In this document: piece after piece, positions 9,044 through 62,275 of the stretch
How the letters are laid out: the number at the start of each line of letters is the position of its first letter
How positions within the stretch are numbered: the stretch's first letter is position 1
NCBI GenBank assembly: GCA_034422515.1
Contig: DAOUJP010000010.1
Coordinates: 200,123-264,122 of the forward strand
Direction of reading: 5' to 3'
Origin: Chloroflexota bacterium
GTDB lineage: Bacteria > Chloroflexota > UBA11872 > UBA12225 > JAJDUF01
Length of the DNA stretch: 64,000 nt
Notes under the pieces: generated by a model
Databases searched by the model: none
What the model was told of the DNA's origin: nothing
The model's input: only the letters and a program-made list of their open reading frames with translations
Translations under genes and position numbers: made by a program

Positions 9044-9186
9044 CGCGGGGCCAGCCCCCCTATGGTCCCCCCGCTGCGACGGGGGGACGGGAGTGGCGTG
9101 CTGCGCGTCTATGGCGGTGGGATTAGCGGGGAAGCGGGAGGCCTGGGTGCTGCGGCAACTGGATTGCGGCTTTCGCCGCAATGACG
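9044..9186. repeat. Repeat cluster: family B, then G-rich filler, then family E (GGATTGCGGCTTTCGCCGCAATGACGG)
   Basis: Same B-then-E arrangement as at 40182-40242. Confidence 0.75.
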
Positions 9187-18269: not shown

Positions 18270-18437
18270 GGGGTATTGGCTCTCACCAGGCTAGGTTTCT
18301 CGGCAGCAGGCGGGGTGGACCTACTCCCCGCTCCTTCCCTGGATGAAAGTTGACAACTTAATCGGGTAGTGGGATGTAGCCCCCCTATGACCCCCCGCTG
18401 CGGCGGGGAGACGGGAGCGGAGGTAAGGAGGTTGGTG

Positions 18438-25130: not shown

Positions 25131-25206
25131 GCGGGCATGGTGTAGTTGGTAACACGCGACCTTCCCAAGGTTGAGATCGAGGGTTCGAGTCCCTTTGCCC
25201 GCTCCC
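25131..25206 (+). tRNA. tRNA-Gly (anticodon CCC)
   Basis: GCGGGCA acceptor; D-loop AGTTGGTAA; anticodon stem CGACC/GGTTG with loop TTCCCAA; T-arm GGGTTCGAGTCCC; 3' TGCCCGC. CCA is not exactly encoded. Confidence 0.85.
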
Positions 25207-40181: not shown

Positions 40182-40242
40182 CCCCCCTATGGTCCCCCCG
40201 TTGCGGCGGGGGACATGGATTGCGGCTTCCGCCGCAATGACG
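40182..40242. repeat. Composite B plus E hairpin repeat
   Basis: CCCCCCTATGGTCCCCCCGTTGCGGCGGGGGAC then GGATTGCGGCTTCCGCCGCAATGACGG. Confidence 0.8.
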
Positions 40243-48182: not shown

Positions 48183-48725
48183 TTGGCGATGACGTATGTC
48201 GAGATGATCGTGGACAGCATCCGCATGAACATTGATGACAGGTCCCGTGCGGCCCTGCGCGAGGGGGCGGATAGTTATCACATTGGCGAGGAACACATCA
48301 GGTCCTGGGTGGTCGTACTCAAGGAGCCGGATAGCGACCGGAGTCTGCCCATCATTATCGGCTCGGCCGAGGCCGAGGCTATCGTGTTCAAGCTCCAGGA
48401 AACGGCAGTGCCGCGACCGATGAGCCACGATCTCATGTTGGGCCTGGCGACTGCTTTCGGGGCGTCGATTCAGGAGGTGCGCGTCACCAAGATGGAACAA
48501 GAGACGTTTTTCGCGGCGGTTGTTGTCGCACGCGATGGTCAGATCAAAGAGATTGACGCCCGTCCGAGCGATGCCATCGCGCTCGCCCTACGCGCGCAAG
48601 TCCCCATCTACGTCCATACGGTCGTAAAGGAGAAGGCTTTTTCGAAGCGGAACGACGCTACGCCAAACTCAACTACGCAGGTGTTCGTGAAGAACAGCCA
48701 ACCGAGTCGAGGGGACGCAGTGTGA
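48183..48725 (+). CDS. Bifunctional-nuclease-domain (BFN/DUF151) protein
   Basis: ARPSDAIALALRAQVPIYV is the DUF151 hallmark; lies 23 nt downstream of the ECF sigma gene. Confidence 0.65.
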   Translation: MAMTYVEMIVDSIRMNIDDRSRAALREGADSYHIGEEHIRSWVVVLKEPDSDRSLPIIIGSAEAEAIVFKLQETAVPRPMSHDLMLGLATAFGASIQEVRVTKMEQETFFAAVVVARDGQIKEIDARPSDAIALALRAQVPIYVHTVVKEKAFSKRNDATPNSTTQVFVKNSQPSRGDAV

Positions 48726-48778: not shown

Positions 48779-49975
48779 CTAGGATGCGGCGGCTCGCTCT
48801 ACCAGGGCGGCGATGCCCATGCCACCACCGACGCAGAGGGCGGCGATACCGCGCGTGGCATCGCGTCGAGTCAGCTCGAAGATCAGCGTTGCCAGCACGC
48901 GCGCGCCGCTCGCTCCCAGCGGATGGCCAATGGCAATTGCACCGCCGTTGACGTTGACCTTGGTGCGATCCCAGCCCAACTCCGCCTCGACGGTGAGCAC
49001 TTGGGCCGCGAAGGCTTCGTTCACTTCGAGCAGGTCAATGTCCGCCAGGGTCAAGCCCGTCCGGTCCAGCACGGTGCGGATGGCCGGCACTGGCCCGATA
49101 CCCATACGCAGCGGCTCGACGCCGACGACCGCTACCGATCTGAGCGTAGCCAGGGGTGCGTGACCATGCCGGGCGGCCCACGTCGGAGACGCGACGATCA
49201 GAGCGGTGGCACCGTCATTGATGCCAGCGGCGTTGCCGGCGGTGATGGTGGAGCCGCCGGCGAAGACCGGCGGCAGCTTGGCGAGCGCCTCCAGCGTTGT
49301 ATCCGGTCGTGGGTGCTCATCGGCCGTCACGCGGCGGGGCGGTCCGCGGCGCTGAGACACCTCGACCGGGACGATCTCATCGGCGAAGTGGCAGGCGGCG
49401 AGTGCCGCGGCGTAGCGGCGCTGGCTTTGTAGGGCGAATTCGTCCTGCGCCGCGCGGATGATGCCGAACTCCGCGGCGAGGCCCTCGGCCGTGGTAGCCA
49501 TGTGGCAGTCGTGGAAGGCATCCCAGAGGCCATCGTGGAGCAGGACATCGAGCTGCCGGGCGTGGCCCAGCCGCGCGCCCCACCGTGCATCGGGCAGCAC
49601 GTAGGGCACCTGGCTCATACTCTCCATACCGCCAGCCAAGGCGACCTCCGCCTCGCCGAGCCGGATAGCCTGGGCGGCCAGCGCGACGGCCTGCAAGCCG
49701 GAGGCACAGACTTGGTTGATCGTCATGGCCGGGACGCGATTGGGCACGCCGACGCCCATCGCCACCTGCCGCGCCGGGTTCATGCCGGCCCCGCCCTGGT
49801 AGATTTGGCCGAATATCGCCGTATCAACATCGTCCGGCGCGATCCGGGCGCGTTCGAGGGCCGCGCGCGCGGCGACGGTGCCTAGCTCGACGGCGGATAG
49901 GTCGCGGAACACGCCGCCAAAGCGGCCGAACGGCGTCCGCGCTGCCGACAGAATGACCGGATCCGTGGTGCTCAC
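48779..49975 (-). CDS. Acetyl-CoA C-acetyltransferase (thiolase II)
   Basis: Thiolase signatures INQVCASGLQAV (active Cys), NVNGGAIAIGHPLGASGAR, CVGGGMGIA. Confidence 0.95.
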   Translation of the reverse strand: MSTTDPVILSAARTPFGRFGGVFRDLSAVELGTVAARAALERARIAPDDVDTAIFGQIYQGGAGMNPARQVAMGVGVPNRVPAMTINQVCASGLQAVALAAQAIRLGEAEVALAGGMESMSQVPYVLPDARWGARLGHARQLDVLLHDGLWDAFHDCHMATTAEGLAAEFGIIRAAQDEFALQSQRRYAAALAACHFADEIVPVEVSQRRGPPRRVTADEHPRPDTTLEALAKLPPVFAGGSTITAGNAAGINDGATALIVASPTWAARHGHAPLATLRSVAVVGVEPLRMGIGPVPAIRTVLDRTGLTLADIDLLEVNEAFAAQVLTVEAELGWDRTKVNVNGGAIAIGHPLGASGARVLATLIFELTRRDATRGIAALCVGGGMGIAALVERAAAS

Positions 49976-50004
49976 TGTTTCGTCTCCCCAAGTCTTGGTG
50001 GGCT

Positions 50005-50229
50005 TCAGCCGTAACGCTCCCGGCCCTCGCGGATGATAGTGACTATCTCCTCGGTGGTCACGCCGAGATCAACACCAGCGACATCGAGGGGCGAGCCACG
50101 GGCCGGCTCGGGCTGCAAGACGAACGACCGACCGTCCCGACGACGAATCCGGACCGCACCGTCCCGCTGGGCAACCTCCAGGAGCGACGCAAGGTTCTGC
50201 CTAGCTTCCGAGTAAGTGTAGACTCTCAT
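50005..50229 (-). CDS. Phd/YefM-like antitoxin-fold protein without an adjacent toxin
   Basis: MRVYTYSEARQNLASLLEVAQRDGAVRIRRRDGRSFVL matches the YefM N-terminus (M-TISYSEARQNLS...); divergent 30-aa C-terminus. 24 nt downstream of the MTase gene; no YoeB/ParE/RelE ORF nearby. Confidence 0.6.
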   Translation of the reverse strand: MRVYTYSEARQNLASLLEVAQRDGAVRIRRRDGRSFVLQPEPARGSPLDVAGVDLGVTTEEIVTIIREGRERYG

Positions 50230-50253
50230 GGGCTGACCTCCAAGACTGGGGCC

Positions 50254-51867
50254 TTACTCCTGGGGCCGTAGTGGCGCCGTGCTCACGGCTGGCGCGGCGC
50301 GTGGCGCCCGCTGATAGGTGACGTTGCCCATGTGAGGATAGGCGATCCCTTGCCCGGCGAACAGGTCGGCAACGGTAAGTAGCTGCAAGCCTGGGTAATC
50401 CTGGTCCCAGCCTGGGGAATGATAAGGGTCGGCGCTGGCGGCTTCCTGCCGCATTGCTCGCGTCGGCTCTTGCAGCGAGATGAATACGCCGATAGCAGCC
50501 TGCTCGCGTTGGACGACGCCCCGGAGGTCGCGGACGTGCGCCACGCCGGTCTTGCCGGCCTTGACCGACAAGATGATCTGCTTGGTGCGGCCCTTGGGAC
50601 CTTCATCGTGGAAGTAGAGCCGGCCGTCAATGCCGCGGTCTGCTCCCTTCTTTTGCTCTAGTGGCCGCGCCCCCACCTTCCCTAGTGCCCACCACTGGAA
50701 CTGATACGGGTCTTGTTGGGCGAGTGCTTGGGCGTCCGGCAGCGCCTTGGGTTCTCCAATCACCTCGTAAGTTTGGGCGATGTCCGGTCCGAACGCATCC
50801 TGGAGCCGATGGCGAATGAGGTTAATGGCGAGATGGGTGATGTCAATGCCGATCCAGCGGCGTCCGAGCTTTTGCGCCGCTGCAATTGCGGTCCCACAGC
50901 CGCAGAACGGATCGAGGACGACCGCGCCTTCATTGGAGGAAGCCAGAATGATGCGCTCCAACAGGGCTTCCGGTTTCTGGGTCGGATAGCCAAGGCGCTC
51001 CTTGGACTGAGCGGACACATTCCCTATGTCGGTCCAGAGATTCGTCGGTGCTCGTCCGCCAGACAAATAGGTCTTGCGGTATGGCCGTCCACTCTTTGAC
51101 CATACTAGGCGCCCTTCATTGTCAAGAGCCTCCAACTTACTGCGTTCCATGCGCCAGCCGAATTCTGGAACATAGCCTTTGTATTCATATGCGAGATTAG
51201 GTCTAGGCCCCATTGATGCCGTGCGTATGATCTCGTGGAGTCGATACTTCCCTCGTTCATCCTCGTAGCGATAAAAGTTAGCTACATACGACTCGTCGTG
51301 GGGAACGTATACGCGATTCCATATACGCTTCTTCGTTTTCGCGTAAAACAGGATCGTATCGGTCACATGAGCGAAACGACTGGCGTCATTGTGCGAACTG
51401 GTCCGCTGCCAGATAACCTCACTCCGAAAGCTCTCCCCACCGAAAATTGCGTCCAGCAATAGTTTGAGGTAGTGGCTGGCGTTCGAATCACAGTGGAGAT
51501 AGAGACTGCCCGTTGGCTTCAAGACGCGATGCAGCTCGACGAGGCGCGGCGCCATCATGGACAGGTACGCCAGCATATCGTTGTCGCCGAGGAAGAGGCG
51601 GAAGGCTTGCAGGACCTCGGAGACTTTGCCGCCGGCTTCCACGACCTCTCGGTACGCGGTTGCTGCTGCCTGGTCCCAGTGCCAGGTGTCCTCGAAGGCC
51701 TTGATCTGTGCTGCCGACTGTGAGCCGTCTCGTTCGGCGAACAGCACGTTATAGCTCTGGTTGCTCTTGAAGGGCGGATCGAGGTAGATGAGGTCTACCG
51801 ACTCGTCGGGGACATGCTCGCGGAGCACTTCGAGGTTGTCACCGTAATACAGCGTGTTGTCTGGCAT
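50254..51867 (-). CDS. Beta-class N6-adenine/N4-cytosine DNA methyltransferase fused to a C-terminal Mrr-like (PD-(D/E)xK) restriction-endonuclease domain
   Basis: Motif IV IYLDPPFKSN precedes motif I VVLDPFCGCGTAIAAAQKLGR (beta permutation). The C-terminal approximately 170 aa contains GADRGIDGRLYF...KQIILSVKAGK...AAIGVFISLQEPT, which resembles the Mrr catalytic-domain pattern (D.GIDG...Q/SxK). Confidence 0.75.
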   Translation of the reverse strand: MPDNTLYYGDNLEVLREHVPDESVDLIYLDPPFKSNQSYNVLFAERDGSQSAAQIKAFEDTWHWDQAAATAYREVVEAGGKVSEVLQAFRLFLGDNDMLAYLSMMAPRLVELHRVLKPTGSLYLHCDSNASHYLKLLLDAIFGGESFRSEVIWQRTSSHNDASRFAHVTDTILFYAKTKKRIWNRVYVPHDESYVANFYRYEDERGKYRLHEIIRTASMGPRPNLAYEYKGYVPEFGWRMERSKLEALDNEGRLVWSKSGRPYRKTYLSGGRAPTNLWTDIGNVSAQSKERLGYPTQKPEALLERIILASSNEGAVVLDPFCGCGTAIAAAQKLGRRWIGIDITHLAINLIRHRLQDAFGPDIAQTYEVIGEPKALPDAQALAQQDPYQFQWWALGKVGARPLEQKKGADRGIDGRLYFHDEGPKGRTKQIILSVKAGKTGVAHVRDLRGVVQREQAAIGVFISLQEPTRAMRQEAASADPYHSPGWDQDYPGLQLLTVADLFAGQGIAYPHMGNVTYQRAPRAAPAVSTAPLRPQE

Positions 51868-51885
51868 GGCTGTCTCACACCTAAT

Positions 51886-52893
51886 CTAAGCCCCGATTCC
51901 CGATCCGTCAGGTGTAGATGGTCTGGGTTTAATATAGAAGCACGAATGAAAATTATCCTTGATCTCATCCGCCATCGGTTCCTCGCTCTCGCGCTCATAG
52001 CTGACCTTAACATAGGCATCGTAGGAAACACGCACTAGGGTGTCCTCGCAGAGGCTCAGGCGCTCTCTGACCTCCTTTTCCGCTGCGGGCGCCGCGGTGG
52101 ACGGTGATCGCTTGCAGAGGCCCAGGTACTCTCTGACCTCCTTTTCGGGATTCCATCGAGTGGAAAACCGAAGCTGTACCGTAGATAGTGGGCCAACTCT
52201 CACATCATGCACATGTATTGCCCTTACCAATTCATAATTTCTGACAAATGTCCCGACACGAAACTGGCCTTCATAGTGGCGAATACGCCAGCTATCCATC
52301 CAACTGTTACGCAAGACGATGCTGGATCGAAATTCAATCTCATCATCGTGCCAAAAGGCGTGCTCCACGGGCCCACTCTCAATACTGAGTCCTTTATGTT
52401 CGTGGTCGGCGATCTCATTATCCTTGACTACCAGTTGCCGGATGCGTTTCGGATCCACCGCTGGGCCTAAGACAGGAATAGGGACAGTACGAATAGGAAA
52501 CTCCCACTCAGACCTAATGAGTCTATTCAATTTCACCTTCAGCACCGCTTCCATGGGCCGGCCCTCTTGTGGCGGCTCCCAGCAATCGACAACGGCTTCA
52601 ACTTCCTCGGGCAGTCCTGACACGGGCAACGGGACAGTTATTTCGGCACTGGTTTGGGCGTTCTTGACGTGCCTCTCGCACTTTGCACGATTCTTGACTT
52701 TCCAAACGAGCTTTACACCATCCACCCGCCCGATGCTGGGGGAGGTACTCGTGAACTTGATGCGGAAGGAACCAGCTTGGCCAGAAGCGACAGGGGGTAA
52801 GATTTCTACTCTGAGGTCCGGCATCACCAGTGAGCGCAAGAATCCGACCACAAACGGCAGCCATCCGGGTGAGGGCGCAGAGATAGGGTCCAT
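51886..52893 (-). CDS. Hypothetical protein (low GC) immediately upstream of the MTase::Mrr gene in the same operon
   Basis: Approximately 335-aa ORF with the internal repeat EKEVRE(Y/R)L(G/S)LC twice; start trimmed to MDPISAP because the ORF-track N-terminus overlaps the CoA-transferase gene; no recognised domain. Confidence 0.45.
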   Translation of the reverse strand: MDPISAPSPGWLPFVVGFLRSLVMPDLRVEILPPVASGQAGSFRIKFTSTSPSIGRVDGVKLVWKVKNRAKCERHVKNAQTSAEITVPLPVSGLPEEVEAVVDCWEPPQEGRPMEAVLKVKLNRLIRSEWEFPIRTVPIPVLGPAVDPKRIRQLVVKDNEIADHEHKGLSIESGPVEHAFWHDDEIEFRSSIVLRNSWMDSWRIRHYEGQFRVGTFVRNYELVRAIHVHDVRVGPLSTVQLRFSTRWNPEKEVREYLGLCKRSPSTAAPAAEKEVRERLSLCEDTLVRVSYDAYVKVSYERESEEPMADEIKDNFHSCFYIKPRPSTPDGSGIGA

Positions 52894-52900
52894 GGGCTTA

Positions 52901-54475
52901 CTATACCGGAGCGAGGCGCATTGGCTCGGGGTGGAAGAGGCGGGGGTCCATCGGGCGGAGGGGGGCTTTGATGCGCGGTTGGAAGGCCATTTGTGCGAGG
53001 ACATCGCGCTCCAGGTCCACGCCGGGGGCCAGCTCGGTCAGGGTCAGGCCCGCGGGGGTGAGAGTGAACACGGCCCGCTCCGTGACGTAGAGGACCGGCC
53101 GGCCGGCGGCCTGGGCCAAGGCGCCGTTGAAGGTGACTTGCTCGACCTGCCCGACGAGCTTCTGCTGCCGGCCTTCCTGCCGGATACGCAGGGCGCCGTC
53201 GTCAATCGTTACGGCGAGGCCGCCGGCCGTAAACGTGCCGCAGAAGACGACCCGCTTGGCGTTCTGGCTGATGTTGACGAAGCCGCCGGCGCCGGGCATC
53301 ACGCGACCGAAACGGCTGACGTTGACGTTGCCCTGCGCGTCAATCTGGGCCGCGCCCAGGCAGGCGATGTCGAGGCCACCGCCGTCGTAGAAGTCGAACA
53401 TATACGGCGCATCTATCAACGCCGTAGGCATATACGAGGCGCCGAACGAGAGGCCGCCAGCGGGCACGCCGCCAATGGCCCCGGTTTCGACGGTCAGGAC
53501 GAGATCGTCCATGATTCCTTCTTCGGCAGCAACCGGCGCGACGGCTTCCGGCAGGCCGATGCCCAGGTTCACGATGTCACCCGGCCGTAGCTCAAGGGCT
53601 GCCCGGCGGGCGATCACCTTGCGGGCGTCCAGAGGATGCCGGGGGAGCGCCGGCAGGTCGGCGCTCATATCGGCCACGTAGGCGGGATTGAACCGTTCAT
53701 CGAACGTCTGCCAATGCTCGTCCGGGTCCGCGACGACGACTGTATCCACAAGGATGCCGGGAATTCTTATGTCGCGCAGTGGGAGGCGGGAGGCGCTCAC
53801 GCGCTCCACTTGTGCAATCACGCGGCCGCCGCAGTTATGCACGGCTTGGGCGATGCTCAACATCTCGCCGTAGACCGCTTCCCGCTCCATGCTGATGTTG
53901 CCGTCGGGATCGGCGGTCGTGCCGCGGATGAGGCCGACATCCAGCTCTAGGCGGGGGTAGAAGAGGTACTCGGCGCCGTTCAAGCGGACCACCTGCACCA
54001 GATCGGTGGGAGTAGCCTGGGGGTTGATGCGCCCACCTTCCAGGCGCGGATCGGCAAAGGTGCGGAGACCGACTTGGGTGATGGTACCGGGTTTGCCGGC
54101 GGCAATGTCGCGGAAGAGGTGTATGATGACGCCTTGCGGGAAGTTGTAGCCTTCGATCTTGCCGGCCAAGGCCAACTCACAGATGTGCGGGGCCAGTCCC
54201 CAGTGACCGCCGATCACGCGGCGCAGCAGGCCCTCGTGACCCAGGTGATTGAGGCCGCGACGCCCCCGGTCACCCTGCCCGGCGCCGTAGATCAAGGTGA
54301 GGCCGCGCGGCCGGCCAGTGCGGAGGAAGCGCGTCTCCAGGCCGGCGGTCAGTGCCTCCGGGTGACCGATTCCGACGAACCCGCCGACCGCCACGGCGTC
54401 GCCGTCTTGCACCGCCGCGACGGCCGCATCAAGCGACGTGACTTTGCCCGCAACTGGCTCGTTTTCCATGCTCAT
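52901..54475 (-). CDS. Acyl-CoA:acetate/3-ketoacid CoA-transferase (fused alpha-beta subunits)
   Basis: CoA_trans family motifs across approximately 520 aa: [10 protein letters not shown], catalytic Glu region ...SENG-like MEREAVY..., C-terminal beta-subunit-like half. Confidence 0.85.
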
Positions 54476-54547: not shown

Positions 54548-54635
54548 CTGGCCCCCCTATAGTCCCCCCGCTGCGGCGGGGGGACGGACTGTTCCCTCCC
54601 CCGTCGGGACGGGGGAGGGCTAGGGAGGGGGCCAA
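54548..54635. repeat. Repeat cluster B plus C in the divergent intergenic region
   Basis: CCCCCCTATAGTCCCCCCGCTGCGGCGGGGGGACGG then CCCTCCCCCGTCGGGACGGGGGAGGGCTAGGGAGGGGGCC. Confidence 0.8.
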
Positions 54636-54690: not shown

Positions 54691-55440
54691 ATGCAGCGAT
54701 TTACGGGTCAAGTGGCGCTGGTGACGGGAGCGGCGACTGGGATTGGCTTCGGCATTGCCCGCCGCTTGGGGAGCGAGGGCGCCAAGGTGTTTGTGGTAGA
54801 CATTGACGAGGCCGGGGGACGCCGCGCGGTCAAAGAACTGGTGGCCGAGGGGGTCACGGCGCGGCTGGCGGTGGCCGACGTGGGCGACGAGCCGGCGGTC
54901 GCGGCGGCAGTCGAGGAGTTGATGGCGACTTGGGGCCGGATTGACGTGCTCGTGAATAACGCCGGGATTGTCGGGCCGACGGCGCCGTTGTGGGAGCTAT
55001 CCGGCGAGGACCTGGATCGCGTCTACCGCACCAACCTGCGTGGCGTGTTTGTCTGCTGCCGGTACGTCATTCCGCACATGCTCGCGCAGGACTACGGTCG
55101 CATCGTGAATATCGCCTCGATTGCCGGCAAAGAAGGCAACCCGCGGGTGGTGCCTTACTCGACGACCAAGGCCGCGGTCATCGGGCTGACCAAGGCACTC
55201 GGCAAGGAGCTGGCCGAGACGGAGGTGCGCGTCAACTGCATCACGCCGGCCGTCGTGCGGACGGCCATCCTGGATCAGACGGACGAGGCGATGGTGGAGT
55301 ACATGATTAGCCGCATTCCGATGCAGCGCACGGGCCAGATCGCGGAGATCGCGTCGTTGGTGGCGTGGATCGCCTCGGAAGAGTGCTCGTTCAGCACGGG
55401 CGCGGTCTTCGACATCAGCGGGGGGCGCGCGACGTATTAG
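54691..55440 (+). CDS. Short-chain dehydrogenase/reductase (3-hydroxybutyrate or 3-oxoacyl reductase-like)
   Basis: TGAATGIG cofactor motif; NNAG; catalytic YSTTKAAVIGLTKALGKE (YxxxK). Confidence 0.9.
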   Translation: MQRFTGQVALVTGAATGIGFGIARRLGSEGAKVFVVDIDEAGGRRAVKELVAEGVTARLAVADVGDEPAVAAAVEELMATWGRIDVLVNNAGIVGPTAPLWELSGEDLDRVYRTNLRGVFVCCRYVIPHMLAQDYGRIVNIASIAGKEGNPRVVPYSTTKAAVIGLTKALGKELAETEVRVNCITPAVVRTAILDQTDEAMVEYMISRIPMQRTGQIAEIASLVAWIASEECSFSTGAVFDISGGRATY

Positions 55441-55520: not shown

Positions 55521-55811
55521 TCAGGTGGGCGTGTTGGCGAGCGACTCGCTGACGTTGGTGCCATTTGCGGCGCGAGCACAATCGAGGTCGTACATCTGCT
55601 GGAGATTAAGCCAGAAATCGGGAGTCATCCCCAAGGCTGCTCCAATCCGCAGCGCCGTGTCGACCGTGATCGGCGCTTGATGGTGGATGATTTGGTTGAG
55701 GCGTATTGGGTCCACGCCCATCGTCTGCGCTAGATGGTCCTGGCTGATGTGGAGTTCATCCAGAATCTCTACCAGATGCTCTCCTGGGTGGATCGGGTCA
55801 AGGGTGGTCAT
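55521..55811 (-). CDS. higA: HigA-type antitoxin (XRE-family HTH)
   Basis: IHPGEHLVEILDEL...LAQTMGVDPIRLNQIIHHQAPITVDTALRIGAALGMTPDFWLNLQQMYDL matches the HigA antidote consensus. Confidence 0.85.
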   Translation of the reverse strand: MTTLDPIHPGEHLVEILDELHISQDHLAQTMGVDPIRLNQIIHHQAPITVDTALRIGAALGMTPDFWLNLQQMYDLDCARAANGTNVSESLANTPT

Positions 55812-55825
55812 GGATGTTTTCCTCA

Positions 55826-56092
55826 GTGGTAGTCGGTAACTTCGATCTCCATCGCGCCTTGGGTCGTCCAACGAAAGCATACACGCCACTGGCCGTTGAT
55901 GCGAATGCTGTGTTGGCCCTTCCGGTTACCATTTGGGGGGCTTGAGGTGCAGAGAAGGCGGCGGCTTAAGGGCAGCCAGCCGCTCCCTCTCCACAACCAT
56001 CTTCGGCTCTTTGGGCGCCTGGCGCTTGGTCGGCAGGTAAGGGTACCGTTCCCCTTTGGGTATCCGTACCGTGCGCTTGTTCTTAAATCGTC
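55826..56092 (-). pseudogene. higB: higB toxin (RelE/ParE-fold HigB) disrupted by a frameshift
   Basis: N-terminal frame MKPRRFKNKRTVRIPKG...KPPPSLHLKPPKW-stop. The C-terminal HigB hallmark ...GNRKGQHSIRINGQWRVCFRWTTQGAMEIEVTDYH-stop lies in the +1 frame; it ends 14 nt before the higA ATG. Confidence 0.65.
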
Positions 56093-56990
56093 TCGGTTTC
56101 ATGGTGAGACTCCTTTCTCTGCTCTCGGCGTTCGTACCACAGACACCCCAGCGTTAAAAACACAGGGGCCGGGGAAACCCGGCCCCAATGTGTGTAGGCC
56201 TCCTTGATGTAACAGGAGGTTGTGAAGTTAAACCTCACCGTGTCGGATGGTTTGTTGCTGAAGACGGTGTATCGTTTGGAAGGTTGCCCGCAGTATTCTA
56301 GGACGTTCTAGTATTTCTACGTCAAGCTATCGGAAGATCGTTTGTAGTGCTCTGACCACAAGGGCAAGAGTGATCAGGTAGTAAGCGAATTGAATAAAGT
56401 CGTACTCCATTCAGGTCTCCTTTCCGGTCGACGCTGCGGGCGCCGTCAACCTGTATTTTTTTGGAGCGTACCAAGTAAAAACATCTACTCGGCACGATTC
56501 CATCTCTGGTGCCAGCGGTCGTGACGAGTTCTATTTCAGAAGTTTCCGGCAGTAAATCTGTTGAGATGGAAGTGTGTGATATCAGCGTGAAAAGTAATCC
56601 CGTAGTGACCTATACGGGATTGCACCGTGCTCTCCAGCCGCTAGGCTGTATTTACAGCCACAAAGAATCTTTACCTCAAAGATAACAATTGCTATTATGT
56701 AAGGACATGTAGACGCCAGAACACCTATGCCGGATTTTTCGCGATATCATCTAATTTTTTATTTGCTTACTAGAAAGACTGGAAGGCGCTGTACACCTCC
56801 TGGTAGGGAGCGGAGGTATAGAAGACTGGGAGAATACCTCTCAGTATCCATGGTACCTCCTAGGTCTACAGTAGTCAAGTAGAACGAATGGACTACTGGA
56901 GCTGGCTGGAACCTACACCAGAGCCATCAAGCCCCACAGGACGGGAGTGCCAGCTTGGCAAAGTCATTAGTAGCGACATAGCGTAGCCCC

Positions 56991-59519
56991 TCAGGTTGCG
57001 GGACAGCCCCACTGGCCCTCGACGCTGTGTATGCCCTCAATCCACACCCGGAAGGCGTCGTTAGCTGGCACGCACAGCCCCGTGTTGTGGAAGTGAAAAT
57101 TATGCAGCCTCGTCAACCTCGTCAGACTCTGCGGTAGCGGCCCGGTCAAGTTGTTACTGTAGAACCACAGCGACGTGAGGTTAGTCAGATCGCCCCACTC
57201 AGCCGGTATTGGGCCTGTCAACTCGTTGTTGGTGAGGCTCAACCAAGTGAGGCTAGTCAGATTACCCCACTCAGCCGGTAGCGGCCCGGTCAGGTTGTTG
57301 TCACCGAGGTTCAAATAGGTAAGGCTGGTCAGATTGCCCCACTCGGCCGGTAGCGGCCCGGTCAGGTCGTTGCCGTCGAGGTTCAGTCTCTCAAGTCTGG
57401 TCAGTCTGCCCAGTTCCGCTGGCAGCGGCCCCGCCAGGCTATTACCGAGACCTACAAATCCACTGACTGAACCGAGGTCCAGGCTGGTGACGCGGCCGTT
57501 GCGGTCAGTTTCGACGCCGGCCCAGAGCCTGAGTGGTGCGTCGCTCAACCAGTTCCGTTTGATCCTCCAGTTCGCGCCGTCCGTCGCATTGTAGAGCGCA
57601 ACGAGCACGGCCCGGTCCGAGGCCGGTCCTGGCTCCGGGGTGTTCGTTGGGCTGGGTGTGGGAGATGCCGGCGGCTCCGGCGTAGGTCTGGCGGTAGCCG
57701 CTGGCGCATTGGCCGGAGGCACTGCTGCTGTGTTGCTGCAGAACGGGAGGCCCGCCTCGTCGAAGTCGTTCCTAGCGACACGGCGCAGTGCCGGCGGCAG
57801 GCATCCGGTGAGTGCATTGCCGCCGAGGGACAAGAACCCCAGGTTGGCGAGCGAACCGAGTTGAGGCGGTACGACGCCCGACAGTTGATTGATGTTGAGA
57901 GTCAACGCTCGCAGGTTGACGAGAGAGCCTAGTTGGGGTGGGATAGGCCCGGACAGTTGGTTGGTGTCGAGCCACAACTGCTCCAGGTAGGTGAGGGCGC
58001 CCAGTTCGGGCGGAATGGGGCCGGACAACTGGTTTTCGCTGAGTCCTAATCCCTGCAATTTGGCGATGGCGCCCAACTGAGGCGGGATAGTGCCGGTCAA
58101 CTGGTTGTCGCTGAGATACAACACCTCCAGGTTAGCGATGGCACCCAGTTCCGGCGGGATGGTACCGGTCAGTTGGTTGTGGCCGAGGGACAACTCCCGC
58201 AGTTGCGAAAGGGTGCCCAACTGGGAGGGGGTCGTGCCGGTCAATTGGTTGACGTGGAGCCAGAGGCCCTGTAGCGAGACGAGGGTACCCAATTCGGGCG
58301 GGACGGGGCCGGTCAGTTGGTTGTAGCCGAGGGACAACTCCCGCAGTTGCGAGAGGGTGCCCAATTGCGAGGGGATGGCGCCAGTCAGTCGGTTGTCTCG
58401 GAGGTCCAACGATTGCAAGTGAGTGAGAGCGCCCAACTGAGGGGGAATAGTGCCGGTCAGCTTGCGATCAGACAGGACCAGCATGACTACCCGATGCGGC
58501 GCGCCGCCGATGGTGATGCCGTCCCAGTTGGCAACAGCAAGGTCCGCGCTCCAGTTCAGCGTGGCGCTACCGGCCAGCGTGTCTTTAGCTTGCAGCAGCG
58601 CCGTGCAATCCGCGACTAGGCCGGGGTTGTCCTGTGGTGCGGAAACCGCGATGCCATTGGCGCATGGTGATACGGTGGCCGTGGGAGCGGTGGCCGTGGG
58701 CACACCGGTCGGTGTCAAGGTAGGGGTAGGTACAGTCGTCGGAGTCACTGGGGGAGAGATGGCCGCCGCGGTAACGGTTGATGCACCGGTCGGCGTCAAG
58801 GTAGGGGTAGGTACAGCCGTCGGAGTCGCTGGCGGTGTGGTAGCAGTGGCGGTACGCTCCGTAGTCCCCGCACCCGTCTCACCAAACCAGCGCACTGCCA
58901 CCGCCTTGACTCTGGGAATGGTAATGCTCTGCCCAGAGATGGACTCGTACCGTTCTAACCAGGCTACTGCGCCGACAAACTCTATCCGGTCGTCCTCCAG
59001 CAACCGCCGCCCCGTGTAGTCGGCAAGATAGACAATGGCGCTGCTTAAAGAGTCCGGCTCGACATCGACTCGAAAGTCGTAGGTGTCTTCCCCATGCTCG
59101 ATGACTTGGACAATCTTGCCGCGGAAGTAGAAGTGCTGCCCGATGTACTGCTCGTTGTTTCTGAACAGTTCTCTATAGCCGATAGTCGGAATCTGTGCTC
59201 TGCGCTCCTCCCAGGTGGGCGTAGCGGTAGCTGCTGCCTGGCGGGAAGGCACTTGCTGGACCACCGGTGACGCAGCGGCCTCGGGGCGTGGCTCGGTCTC
59301 CTGGTCGGAGAACGAGACGGCTAAGGCGATCACGACGATGGCGAGGCCAACCAACAAGGATGTCGTTACCCCGAGCAGCCACAGGAGTAGGCGCCGGCAG
59401 CCCCCACTCTGCCGGCCAAGTAGCCGGTCACTGACACGCACTAAGCGACTGTGGAAGAGGGACAGATCCACCTTACCGGCGTCGAATGAATCTACATTTG
59501 GTGGGGACTTCTCGCTCAT
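56991..59519 (-). CDS. Large plant-type leucine-rich-repeat (LRR) protein with N-terminal TM anchor and Pro/Thr-rich linkers
   Basis: TM LLLWLLGVTTSLLVGLAIVVIAL; PT linkers TPTAVPTPTLTPTG twice; more than 12 tandem 24-residue repeats LxxLxxLxLxxNxLTGxIPxxLGx and a second LRR block at the C-terminus (GNLTSLTYLNLGDNNLTGPLPAEWG). Confidence 0.85.
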   Translation of the reverse strand: MSEKSPPNVDSFDAGKVDLSLFHSRLVRVSDRLLGRQSGGCRRLLLWLLGVTTSLLVGLAIVVIALAVSFSDQETEPRPEAAASPVVQQVPSRQAAATATPTWEERRAQIPTIGYRELFRNNEQYIGQHFYFRGKIVQVIEHGEDTYDFRVDVEPDSLSSAIVYLADYTGRRLLEDDRIEFVGAVAWLERYESISGQSITIPRVKAVAVRWFGETGAGTTERTATATTPPATPTAVPTPTLTPTGASTVTAAAISPPVTPTTVPTPTLTPTGVPTATAPTATVSPCANGIAVSAPQDNPGLVADCTALLQAKDTLAGSATLNWSADLAVANWDGITIGGAPHRVVMLVLSDRKLTGTIPPQLGALTHLQSLDLRDNRLTGAIPSQLGTLSQLRELSLGYNQLTGPVPPELGTLVSLQGLWLHVNQLTGTTPSQLGTLSQLRELSLGHNQLTGTIPPELGAIANLEVLYLSDNQLTGTIPPQLGAIAKLQGLGLSENQLSGPIPPELGALTYLEQLWLDTNQLSGPIPPQLGSLVNLRALTLNINQLSGVVPPQLGSLANLGFLSLGGNALTGCLPPALRRVARNDFDEAGLPFCSNTAAVPPANAPAATARPTPEPPASPTPSPTNTPEPGPASDRAVLVALYNATDGANWRIKRNWLSDAPLRLWAGVETDRNGRVTSLDLGSVSGFVGLGNSLAGPLPAELGRLTRLERLNLDGNDLTGPLPAEWGNLTSLTYLNLGDNNLTGPLPAEWGNLTSLTWLSLTNNELTGPIPAEWGDLTNLTSLWFYSNNLTGPLPQSLTRLTRLHNFHFHNTGLCVPANDAFRVWIEGIHSVEGQWGCPAT

Positions 59520-62154: not shown

Positions 62155-62275
62155 CCTGGCCCCCACCCTCGCCCTCCCCCGTCCCGACGGGGGAGGGAAC
62201 ATGTCGTGCCTCCACCGCAGCGGCCCACGCCGCCGTCCCCCTGCCGCAGCGGGGGGACCATAGGGGGGCCAGCAC
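62155..62275. repeat. Repeat cluster: C then reverse-orientation B
   Basis: CCCTCCCCCGTCCCGACGGGGGAGGG ... CGCAGCGGGGGGACCATAGGGGGGCC. Confidence 0.8.

What the first reader, a model, noticed from the sequence alone, without database searches (positions are those of the whole stretch)
50005..52893. Three-gene low-GC insertion (hypothetical, MTase::Mrr fusion, YefM-like) splitting a thiolase / CoA-transferase / SDR ketone-body cluster
Thiolase (48779-49975), 3-oxoacid CoA-transferase (52901-54475) and an SDR (54691-55440) form a recognisable acetoacetate/3-hydroxybutyrate set. Between them sits an operon of a 335-aa unknown, a beta-class N6/N4 methyltransferase with a C-terminal Mrr-like nuclease domain (GIDG...SVK), and a YefM-fold protein with no toxin partner. 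GC drops in 51.1-52.9 kb. This looks like an R-M or defence cassette integrated into a metabolic cluster. The MTase::Mrr fusion plus a YefM-like protein, possibly acting as a controller, is an unusual combination.
Basis: partly seen in the sequence, partly recalled or inferred. Interest (0 to 1): 0.7.

Follow-up and report, generated by a model that had tools for sequence, protein, structure and literature searches.

The report
Solitary methylase islet with swapped recognition domain
A small foreign islet inside a fatty-acid/ketone-body operon of a Chloroflexota genome carries a common stand-alone DNA methyltransferase whose DNA-recognition module was swapped by recombination, plus a genus-only unknown protein and an orphan antitoxin; they are not a conserved three-gene defence system.

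Summary
The three ORFs, their domains and the GC dip are real. An empty site in a congeneric genome shows that they interrupt a CoA-transferase/thiolase pair. They are not a conserved system. In 78 metagenome loci that family has no conserved neighbour.

The islet is old. Congeneric species carry it at the same site, and five others keep deletion scars.

The main new result is that the methyltransferase is a mosaic. Residues 1-145 and 296-537 are 90-100% identical among species (dN/dS 0.00-0.11). Residues 150-292, the target-recognition domain and exactly the GC trough, are 32-38% identical. That segment instead matches distant genomes at 75-81%. The genus holds at least three such alleles.

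The Mrr-like fold is confirmed (nearest AspBHI/MspJI). It reads Q...D...SVK instead of E...D...QxK, so nuclease activity is doubtful.

The 335-aa protein exists only in this genus. It is predicted to be an all-beta tandem sandwich, not a nuclease.

Close paralogs of the YefM-like gene follow a PIN toxin, which is absent here.

Overall this is an ordinary but instructive case.

The parts
52901..54475 (-). Flank: fused family-I CoA-transferase (524 aa). The stop codon lies 7 nt before the unknown ORF.
   Evidence: Pfam CoA_trans E 4e-38. NCBIfam gives a FadX-like hit below cut-off. It is 90-96% identical in congeners.
51886..52893 (-). unk335, a genus-restricted ORFan. It has an N-terminal hydrophobic helix followed by two beta-sandwich lobes. 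GC is low (0.54).
51886..52287 (-). Variable 3' third of unk335. It has no nucleotide similarity to the L002 allele.
   Evidence: The blastn alignment with L002 stops at window position 52288. Amino-acid identity is 26% for residues 201-335. The variant tracks the methyltransferase TRD type across the 3 types seen.
50254..51867 (-). Beta-class N6/N4 DNA methyltransferase (537 aa) fused to a C-terminal Mrr-like domain.
   Evidence: Pfam N6_N4_Mtase, NA-iREase1 and Mrr_cat. PADLOC Type II and Type III MTase models. PDB relatives are RsrI, CcrM, and the EcoP15I and H. pylori Mod proteins, for the methyltransferase part only.
51433..51867 (-). Methyltransferase residues 1-145: conserved N-terminal frame with catalytic motif IV (DPPF).
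   Evidence: 90-95% identical to congeners, dN/dS 0.07-0.11, dS 0.48-0.74. YLDPPF(N/K)S is conserved across the 202 family members examined.
51001..51400 (-). Target-recognition domain (about residues 150-292), replaced by horizontal exchange. This is the GC trough (0.51-0.52).
   Evidence: 32-38% identical to L002, L003 and L010, with no blastn match. The same segment is 75-81% identical to proteins whose frames are only 57-63% identical. GC3 is 0.57.
50743..50982 (-). Methyltransferase residues 296-375: AdoMet-binding motif I region (FCGCGT).
   Evidence: 100% amino-acid identity to L002 and L003 with dS 0.17. The motif is conserved in the family.
50254..50742 (-). Mrr-like PD-(D/E)xK-fold domain (residues 376-537). 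Its active-site pattern is degenerate: Q391...D414...S434-V-K436.
   Evidence: AF2 mean pLDDT 87. Foldseek best matches are the AspBHI and MspJI catalytic domains. Residue census. dN/dS 0.04-0.08.
50005..50229 (-). Orphan Phd/YefM-type antitoxin (74 aa).
   Evidence: Pfam 30.3 bits against a cut-off of 29.8. More than 3000 close homologs, nearly all of the 120 listed 74 aa long. Paralogs 81-84% identical overlap the 3' end of a 132-aa PIN gene by 4 nt. No PIN remnant here. dN/dS 0.03 against L003.
48779..49975 (-). Flank: acetyl-CoA C-acetyltransferase (thiolase, 398 aa).
   Evidence: Pfam Thiolase_N and Thiolase_C; NCBIfam TIGR01930 above cut-off. It is 91-97% identical in congeners.

Best explanation
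This is an old, decaying genomic islet at one intergenic site (CoA-transferase | thiolase) in a genus of Chloroflexota. It has no terminator-like site or spacer longer than 29 nt, so it is probably read through with the host operon.

Its core is a self-sufficient, solitary beta-class DNA methyltransferase. It is probably N6-adenine specific (DPPF motif), and its layout resembles a Type III Mod protein. It methylates a sequence set by its central target-recognition domain (TRD).

That TRD is a replaceable cassette. Recombination within the conserved N- and C-terminal frames has installed at least three unrelated TRDs at this site in the genus. The window's allele has its closest known relatives in distant genomes. 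Each swap presumably changes the methylated motif.

The C-terminal Mrr-like domain is kept under strong purifying selection. In this subfamily it has lost two canonical catalytic positions, so it most likely acts as a non-catalytic DNA-binding or oligomerisation module rather than as a restriction nuclease.

The upstream 335-aa protein is a genus-specific, probably membrane-anchored beta-sandwich protein of unknown role. The YefM-like gene is an antitoxin that has no adjacent PIN toxin. Neither is a required partner of the methyltransferase.

Shown: the anatomy, the empty site, the scars, the mosaicism, the selection, the fold, and the lack of conserved neighbours.
Inferred: the methylation activity and base, the change of motif, the non-catalytic role of the Mrr-like domain, and co-transcription.
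For: Site history:
- Empty site in L011, 26 nt.
- In L006 and L007 the first codons of the unknown ORF are fused to YefM at about codon 15-30. L008, L009 and L081 have analogous junctions. L005 keeps only the first ~20 methyltransferase codons.

Mosaic methyltransferase:
- Frames are 93-97% identical among the alleles at this site, and 86-90% to L175 and L176 at other loci, while TRDs are 30-49% identical. Three TRD types occur at this site and a fourth elsewhere in related genomes.
- The window's TRD is 75-81% identical to proteins whose frames are 57-63% identical.
- The TRD segment gives no blastn match, while its flanks match at 85-96%.
- The GC3 trough of 0.57 coincides with the TRD.

Selection: dN/dS is 0.00-0.11 for both frames including the Mrr-like domain, with dS similar to the flanking genes.

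Solitary family:
- 222 neighbour ORFs from 76 of 78 metagenome loci fall into 216 clusters, and none resembles unk335 or YefM.
- It is solitary in a 5.66-Mb genome.
- Full-length copies occur in temperate Streptomyces phages and rhizobial plasmids.

Mrr-like domain:
- Fold confirmed.
- 153 of 202 family members read Q-D-D-S-K-D-E at residues 391, 410, 414, 434, 436, 447 and 455. Canonical E...D...QxK occurs in 23 of 202. E391 almost always accompanies Q434.
- The Pfam score is higher for the 'inactive REase' model (43.6 bits) than for Mrr_cat (31.9 bits).
- The canonical Mrr-like site is PD-QxK (PMC12707154).

Partners:
- unk335 is all-beta with no nuclease fold.
- YefM paralogs pair with PIN toxins.

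Precedent: en-bloc exchange of the recognition domain between conserved frames in Type III modA genes (PMC3311624).
Against: - No methylome or biochemical data exist, so activity, base and motif are all inferred.
- The Mrr-like domain retains invariant D410, D414 and K436 and near-invariant E455. It is as constrained as the methyltransferase core. From memory, Cfr10I-type enzymes are active with an S-V-K motif plus a relocated Glu. Nuclease activity therefore cannot be excluded.
- 11% of the family keep the canonical residues.
- The 3' third of unk335 changes together with the TRD type. This could reflect a functional link rather than one shared recombination tract.
- The 202-sequence sample was selected by similarity to the window protein and is biased.
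Confidence: 0.6

Rival explanations
1. Single-chain restriction-modification enzyme. The Mrr-like domain is an active nuclease that uses the methyltransferase's TRD for recognition, in the manner of Type IIG/IIL enzymes but with a beta-class methyltransferase and a C-terminal nuclease. One gene would then be a complete R-M system. A TRD swap would change restriction and protection together, which would explain both the solitary occurrence and the free TRD exchange.
For: - Solitary occurrence with no partner.
- Modular TRDs.
- The domain is strongly conserved, with invariant D410, D414 and K436 and near-invariant E455, and dN/dS of 0.04-0.08.
- The nearest folds are the active nucleases AspBHI and MspJI.
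- 23 of 202 members have the canonical E...D...QxK.
- Easy loss without scars of killing fits a system in which R and M are lost together.
Against: - Most members, including this one, have Gln for the helix-1 Glu and Ser for the Q/E of the xK motif, substituted together.
- The better Pfam match is to a family defined as inactive.
- Full-length copies sit in temperate phages as plain 'DNA methylase' genes.
- At least one family member sits next to a separate PLD-type restriction enzyme (L126), which a self-contained enzyme would not need.
- My literature searches found no characterised enzyme of this architecture.
Confidence: 0.2
2. Classical Type II R-M pair. unk335 is the cognate restriction endonuclease of the methyltransferase, and both changed specificity together.
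For: - unk335 is immediately upstream on the same strand, 18 nt away.
- It is an ORFan, as many Type II endonucleases are.
- Its 3' part differs between loci that have different TRD types.
Against: - No nuclease family or PADLOC hit.
- It is truncated to its C-terminal half in L010 and L174, and replaced by a 118-aa membrane protein in L003, while the methyltransferase stays intact.
- It is absent from every family locus outside this genus.
Confidence: 0.05
3. Three-gene system in which YefM controls the cassette, either as a transcriptional controller or as an antitoxin of the Mrr-like domain. YefM occupies the position that the antitoxin holds after PIN in its paralogs.
For: - YefM follows the methyltransferase by 24 nt, exactly where its paralogs follow a PIN toxin.
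- It is under purifying selection against L003, dN/dS 0.03 over 74 codons.
Against: - L002, L010 and L174 have an intact methyltransferase under the same constraint but no YefM.
- Five species keep only a 5'-truncated YefM.
- No YefM homolog lies beside any of the 78 family loci.
- The family is otherwise a PIN-linked antitoxin.
Confidence: 0.04

Closest known systems
Type III Mod methyltransferases with allelic DNA-recognition domains (modA of Neisseria and Haemophilus; Gawthorne et al. 2012, PMC3311624)
   Same: - Beta-class N6_N4 methyltransferase with conserved 5' and 3' frames around a hypervariable central recognition domain.
- The domain is exchanged en bloc by horizontal transfer and recombination.
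- PADLOC Type III MTase models and the PDB Mod proteins of EcoP15I and H. pylori match the window protein.
   Different: - No Res gene nearby.
- No simple-sequence repeat that could drive phase variation.
- An extra C-terminal Mrr-like domain.
- The best PADLOC hit is a Type II model.
Mrr-like catalytic domains of MspJI and AspBHI (Type IIM/IV modification-dependent endonucleases)
   Same: They are the nearest solved folds to residues 369-537 (Foldseek probability 1.00, TM-score on the query about 0.5). Pfam Mrr_cat also hits.
   Different: - Those enzymes have a PD-QxK site (PMC12707154); here it reads D...SVK, with Gln for the helix-1 Glu.
- They carry an SRA-like reader domain, whereas here the partner domain is a methyltransferase.
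NA-iREase1 (Pfam PF22722, 'NACHT-associated inactive restriction endonuclease 1')
   Same: It is the best-scoring Pfam model for the C-terminal domain: 43.6 bits against a cut-off of 27. It is also precomputed on all 120 listed family members.
   Different: Here the domain is fused to a DNA methyltransferase, not to a NACHT NTPase. That the family is inactive comes from the Pfam name only and was not tested.
Type IIG/IIL single-chain R-M enzymes (MmeI, BpuSI)
   Same: One polypeptide combines a nuclease-fold domain, a methyltransferase and a swappable TRD, and it occurs as a solitary gene.
   Different: - From established knowledge, those enzymes have an N-terminal nuclease and a gamma-class methyltransferase.
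- Here the methyltransferase is beta-class and the nuclease-like domain is C-terminal with incomplete catalytic residues.
- No activity has been shown.
CcrM-type beta-class methyltransferases with an added C-terminal DNA-binding domain
   Same: Beta-class methyltransferase core (NCBIfam CcrM and PDB 6pbd match residues 291-376) plus an extra C-terminal domain. From memory, in CcrM that domain is needed for DNA binding.
   Different: The C-terminal domains show no detectable sequence relationship (one search found no PDB relative). The CcrM comparison is recalled, not tested.
PIN(VapC)/Phd-YefM type II toxin-antitoxin modules
   Same: The 74-aa gene is 81-84% identical to antitoxins that overlap an upstream 132-aa PIN gene by 4 nt.
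   Different: No PIN gene or remnant is present at this site in the window or in its congeners.

Membership tests
Beta-class N6/N4 DNA methyltransferase (PF01555) | Pfam model above the gathering score; catalytic motif IV (D/S)PP(Y/F) lies N-terminal to AdoMet motif I FxGxG, with the TRD between them | tested here: met
   154.8 bits against a cut-off of 26.7. DPPF at residues 31-34 and FCGCGT at residues 321-326, both conserved in the 202 family members examined.
Beta-class N6/N4 DNA methyltransferase (PF01555) | Demonstrated methyl transfer, and identity of the modified base (m6A or m4C) | not testable with these tools
   The DPPF motif suggests N6-adenine, from established knowledge of the motif. 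A methylome or an enzyme assay is needed.
Type II R-M system (separate R and M genes) | An adjacent gene encodes a restriction endonuclease | tested here: not met
   unk335 has no nuclease family hit. Its predicted fold is a beta-sandwich. The model is of moderate confidence only (pLDDT 62).
Type III R-M system | A Mod-like methyltransferase plus an adjacent Res gene (SF2 helicase with endonuclease) | tested here: not met
   Mod-like matches are present, but there is no helicase or Res gene in the operon or its flanks.
Type IIG/IIC single-chain R-M enzyme | Nuclease domain with a complete catalytic motif fused to the methyltransferase and TRD | tested here: inconclusive
   The fusion and the PD-(D/E)xK fold are present. 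D414 and K436 are kept, but S434 replaces Q/E and Q391 replaces E. Activity is untested.
Mrr_cat / Type IV Mrr family | A PD-QxK catalytic site and a modification-reading N-terminal domain | tested here: not met
   The site reads D...SVK. No winged-helix, Mrr_N or SRA domain was found; the N-terminal part is a methyltransferase.
NA-iREase1 (PF22722) | Pfam model above the gathering score | tested here: met
   43.6 bits against a cut-off of 27, residues 393-478.
NA-iREase1 (PF22722) | Association with a NACHT NTPase (the context that gives the family its name) | tested here: not met
   No NACHT domain in the protein or its neighbours.
Phd/YefM type II antitoxin | Pfam model above the gathering score | tested here: met
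   30.3 bits against a cut-off of 29.8, which is marginal. A PHROG Phd-like antitoxin model also hits, E 1e-5.
Phd/YefM type II antitoxin | An adjacent cognate toxin gene | tested here: not met
   The neighbours are the methyltransferase (24 nt upstream) and the thiolase (29 nt downstream). tblastn with the PIN partners of its paralogs finds nothing.
R-M controller (C) protein | A small helix-turn-helix regulator conserved beside the R-M genes | tested here: not met
   The 74-aa protein has a Phd/YefM match, with no HTH hit. It is absent from L002, L010 and L174 and from all 78 family loci.
Integrative mobile element / genomic island | An integrase or transposase, a tRNA target, and flanking repeats | tested here: not met
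   No such gene lies in or beside the islet. The only tRNA in the window is at 25131. The only flanking repeat is a 7-nt AAGCCCA, which may be chance.

The most novel reading that the evidence does not exclude
[quoted passage not shown] Swapping the TRD would retarget cutting and protection in one step.

A less likely add-on is that the variable upstream membrane-anchored sandwich protein is a specificity-matched accessory.
Probability: 0.15. Interest if true: 0.7.

Novelty: new member of a known kind. Interest (0 to 1): 0.3.

Why it matters
The case shows at single-locus resolution how methylation specificity diversifies in uncultured Chloroflexota. A recognition-domain cassette moves in and out of an otherwise frozen methyltransferase. 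The islet around it is being deleted in sister species.

It also flags a very large, uncharacterised family of solitary methyltransferases that keep a strongly conserved but degenerate Mrr-like domain. Learning what that domain does (DNA clamp, reader or cryptic nuclease) would affect the annotation of thousands of genes that are now labelled either 'methyltransferase' or 'restriction endonuclease'.

For the scan itself, this finding should not be counted as a new defence system.

Tried and rejected
- Family searches for unk335 in Pfam, NCBIfam, PADLOC and PHROGs: nothing.
- Exhaustive HMMER over 1.84 billion representatives for unk335: only 4 hits, every one that could be placed lying at the same site in the same genus.
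- unk335 as a nuclease: rejected on predicted fold. TM-scores to arrestins are low (about 0.2), so I do not call it an arrestin homolog.
- Search for a conserved partner of the methyltransferase in 78 metagenome loci: none. Tightly coupled upstream ORFs turned out to be transposases, DnaN, phage genes and similar.
- PDB sequence search with the C-terminal domain: no relative.
- PIN toxin remnant at the site: none.
- Recent transfer of the whole methyltransferase between species: rejected, because dS of the frames (0.17-0.79) is of the same order as in the flanking genes (0.16-0.38).
- Phase variation: no simple-sequence repeats in the gene.
- Promoter and terminator scan: no more sites than expected by chance.
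- Rfam and tRNA scans: nothing in or near the islet.
- Literature searches for this fusion architecture: no characterised example found.
- The AFDB Foldseek library was unavailable.
- In the sister genus, the gap between the CoA-transferase and the thiolase holds a HAD hydrolase. That is a resident gene, not mobile cargo.


Full report
OBSERVATION

All genes in 48.8-54.5 kb lie on the minus strand and are tightly packed:
- CoA-transferase, 52901-54475, followed by a 7-nt spacer.
- A 335-aa ORF, 51886-52893, followed by an 18-nt spacer.
- A 537-aa ORF, 50254-51867, followed by a 24-nt spacer.
- A 74-aa ORF, 50005-50229, followed by a 29-nt spacer.
- Thiolase, 48779-49975.

The 537-aa protein matches N6_N4_Mtase (E 4e-45), NA-iREase1 (E 3e-11) and Mrr_cat (E 1.5e-7). 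The 74-aa protein just passes PhdYeFM_antitox. The flanks are a thiolase, a CoA-transferase and an SDR. The 335-aa protein hits nothing in Pfam, NCBIfam, PADLOC or PHROGs.

GC falls to 0.51-0.60 between 50.8 and 52.8 kb, against 0.65-0.71 outside. By gene, GC3 is 0.82 in the flanks, 0.59 in the unknown ORF, 0.57 in methyltransferase residues 150-292, and 0.72-0.78 in the rest of the methyltransferase and in YefM.

No terminator-like site and no excess of promoter-like sites was found. Read-through with the host operon is therefore the simplest assumption.

IS IT AN INSERTION, AND HOW OLD?

The exact methyltransferase sequence occurs on a Logan contig with the same gene order.

A scan of species-representative genomes with the CoA-transferase returned Chloroflexota MAGs. 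Eight are congeneric loci (L005-L011 and L081; CoA-transferase 90-94% identical). Fifteen belong to a sister group (74-76% identical). Four more metagenome contigs came from protein look-ups (L002, L003, L085, L174).

The site varies as follows:
- L011 is empty, with 26 nt between the two genes.
- The window has unk335, the methyltransferase and YefM.
- L002 has a 312-aa homolog of the unknown ORF and the methyltransferase, but no YefM.
- L010 and L174 have a truncated unknown ORF (196-227 aa) and the methyltransferase, but no YefM.
- L003 has an unrelated 118-aa two-helix membrane protein, the methyltransferase and YefM (99% identical).
- L005 has that membrane protein, only the first ~20 methyltransferase codons, other DNA with a 369-aa opposite-strand ORF, and a partial YefM.
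- L006-L009 and L081 have only a 5'-truncated YefM.

In L006 and L007 the YefM fragment is fused to the first codons of the unknown ORF (ATGGACATCCCCTCT, against ATGGACCCTATCTCT in the window). These junctions are deletion scars.

It predates the divergence of these species and has since been lost or eroded repeatedly.

In the sister group the two genes are either adjacent or separated by a HAD hydrolase.

THE METHYLTRANSFERASE IS A MOSAIC

Against L002, L003 and L010, residues 1-145 are 90-95% identical and residues 296-537 are 92-100% identical. Residues 150-292 are only 32-38% identical.

At the nucleotide level the flanking parts of the gene align at 85-96%. Window positions 51001-51400 have no match at all.

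dN/dS is 0.07-0.11 for the N-terminal frame, 0.00-0.06 for the motif I region and 0.04-0.08 for the Mrr-like domain. dS (0.17-0.79) is of the same order as in the CoA-transferase and thiolase (0.16-0.38). The frames were therefore inherited with the locus and are functional, while the middle segment was replaced.

In beta-class enzymes the segment between motif IV and motif I is the target-recognition domain (TRD). The window's TRD is 75-81% identical to proteins whose frames are only 57-63% identical. One of these lies in a 5.66-Mb genome, where the gene is solitary.

A pairwise matrix shows three TRD types at this site:
- The window type.
- The L002, L010 and L174 type, 95-97% identical to each other.
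- The L003 type.

A fourth type occurs in L175 and L176. Their frames are 86-90% identical to those of the alleles at this site, but they sit at other chromosomal sites.

The GC trough inside the gene coincides with the swapped TRD.

This pattern matches the en-bloc exchange of recognition domains described for Type III modA alleles (PMC3311624). PADLOC Type III models and the Mod proteins of EcoP15I and H. pylori do match this protein. No simple-sequence repeat that could drive phase variation is present.

The N-terminal frame has a higher dS (0.48-0.74) than the C-terminal part in L002 and L003 (0.17-0.21). The 3' third of the unknown ORF (window 52287-51886) is also unalignable. One imported tract may therefore have spanned roughly 52.3-51.0 kb.

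THE FUSION IS COMMON AND SOLITARY

The best 120 hits are full length and at least 61% identical, and they carry the same Pfam domains. Source names among them include Actinobacteria, Acidobacteria and Bellilinea.

I examined 78 full-length metagenome loci. The 222 neighbouring ORFs, called for 76 of the loci, fall into 216 similarity clusters, and none resembles unk335 or YefM. Tightly coupled upstream ORFs are transposases, DnaN, phage-like proteins, an ankyrin protein and similar. One locus (L126) has a PLD-type, NgoFVII-like restriction enzyme upstream.

Full-length homologs (about 49% identical over residues 4-511) occur as single 'DNA methylase' genes in temperate Streptomyces phages. In phage OzzyJ the gene lies near a serine integrase. 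Homologs also occur on rhizobial and actinobacterial plasmids.

The other two genes are local company.

THE Mrr-LIKE DOMAIN

An AlphaFold model of residues 369-537, built from 30 sequences, has a mean pLDDT of 87. Its order of secondary-structure elements is alpha, alpha, beta, beta, alpha, beta, alpha, followed by further short strands. The best Foldseek matches are the catalytic domains of AspBHI and MspJI, followed by Rpb5, EcoO109I and BamHI. The fold assignment is sound.

The canonical Mrr-like site is PD-QxK (PMC12707154). Residue counts in 202 family members are as follows:

| Position | Residues |
|---|---|
| 391 (helix 1) | Q in 178, E in 24 |
| 410 | D, invariant |
| 414 | D in 201 |
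| 434 | S in 166, Q in 36 |
| 436 | K, invariant |
| 455 | E in 198 |

E391 almost always accompanies Q434 (23 of 24). Two states therefore exist: a canonical E...D...QxK minority, and a Q...D...SxK majority that includes the window protein.

The paired loss of two canonical positions, and the better Pfam score for the 'inactive REase' model, favour a non-catalytic role. The strong constraint, and the remaining acidic residues, mean that activity cannot be excluded. From memory, Cfr10I is active with an SVK motif plus a relocated Glu. I put about 60-65% on a non-catalytic role.

THE 335-aa PROTEIN

Only four relatives exist among 1.84 billion representative proteins, and every one that could be placed lies at this same site in this genus.

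Against L002, residues 1-200 give dN/dS of 0.26-0.34, so this is a real gene under relaxed constraint. Residues 201-335 are 26% identical.

The gene is dispensable for the methyltransferase, since it is truncated in L010 and L174 and replaced in L003.

Its C-terminal variant does track the TRD type. L002 and L174 are 75% identical there, while the window is 38% identical to L174. With only three types, this is equally explained by a single shared recombination tract.

THE YefM-LIKE GENE

More than 3000 close homologs exist, nearly all of the 120 listed being 74 aa long. Two close paralogs (81-84% identical) each overlap the 3' end of a 132-aa PIN gene by 4 nt. One lies on a contig of the same length as the L011 chromosome. 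This is therefore a toxin-first PIN/antitoxin family.

tblastn with those PIN proteins finds nothing in the window or in the congeneric loci.

The gene is an orphan antitoxin. It is under purifying selection where intact (dN/dS 0.03 against L003), but it is absent or truncated in most congeners. There is no support for a role as an R-M controller.

VERDICT

It is not a three-gene R-M or defence cassette, and the fusion is not unusual.

What is really there is a widespread solitary methyltransferase with a cassette-like recognition domain and a degenerate nuclease-fold appendage. It sits in an eroding islet together with a genus-specific sandwich protein and an orphan antitoxin.

Interest is modest. 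The open question worth an experiment is what the conserved Mrr-like domain does.

Noticed in passing
window 55521-55996 (minus strand): A HigA-like HTH protein (122 aa, HTH_3, E 1e-4) overlaps a 57-aa ORF that matches only the C-terminal end of the HigB-like toxin model (E 2.5e-5). This may be a second toxin-antitoxin remnant next to the SDR. Part of it is conserved in L002 and L005.
   Followed up: partly
window 56000-57000: An ORF-poor stretch with the lowest GC of the region (0.46-0.52), between the HigBA-like pair and a large LRR protein. There is no Rfam or tRNA hit. It may be another variable spot.
   Followed up: partly
window 9064-9089, 18388-18413, 40191-40212, 54561-54586, 62234-62259: A REP-like GC-rich palindrome (CCCCCCGCYGCRGCGGGGGGAC) occurs at 5 places in the window, against 0 expected by chance. 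One copy lies in the CoA-transferase/SDR divergent intergenic region. Copies also sit inside the variable site of L003, L005, L006, L007 and L009. A second palindrome (CCTCTCCACNNNGTGGAGAGG) occurs at window 35568 and, with a 2-nt or 1-nt central spacer, in the variable site of L002, L010 and L081.
   Followed up: partly
window 52894-52900 and 49998-50004: The 7-nt sequence AAGCCCA follows both the CoA-transferase stop and the YefM stop, so it brackets the islet. AGCCCATG also precedes both the unknown ORF and YefM. This could be a target duplication or microhomology, or it could be chance.
   Followed up: no
window 51886-52150 (unk335 residues about 250-290): unk335 carries a window-specific insertion that duplicates a short motif (EKEVREYLGLC... 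and EKEVRERLSLC...). The insertion is absent from the L002-type alleles.
   Followed up: no
L126 3863-4873: One metagenome member of the methyltransferase family has a PLD-type (NgoFVII-like) restriction endonuclease 128 nt upstream on the same strand. The family can therefore occasionally be part of a classical R-M pair.
   Followed up: partly
L175 2512-3933: A related Chloroflexota contig carries the methyltransferase (frame 89% identical, a fourth TRD type) at a different locus. A 473-aa ORFan with a coiled-coil region lies 67 nt upstream. It has no significant Pfam hit.
   Followed up: partly
L005 10171-11446: In this congener only the first ~20 codons of the methyltransferase remain. The rest is replaced by DNA encoding a 369-aa ORF on the opposite strand that appears to have a signal-peptide-like N-terminus.
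   Followed up: partly
L012-L026, between the CoA-transferase and the thiolase: In the sister group a 270-aa HAD-family hydrolase occupies the same intergenic position in most genomes. It is absent in L013, L015 and L016. The SDR there lies downstream of the thiolase rather than divergent from the CoA-transferase.
   Followed up: partly
window 56991-59519 (minus strand): An 842-aa leucine-rich-repeat protein with 72-bp tandem repeats (24-residue LRR units) and Pro/Thr-rich linkers.
   Followed up: no
window 48183-48725: A BFN-domain (bifunctional nuclease) gene lies next to an ECF sigma factor. In L003 and L174 the two are called as one fused 573-574-aa gene.
   Followed up: no
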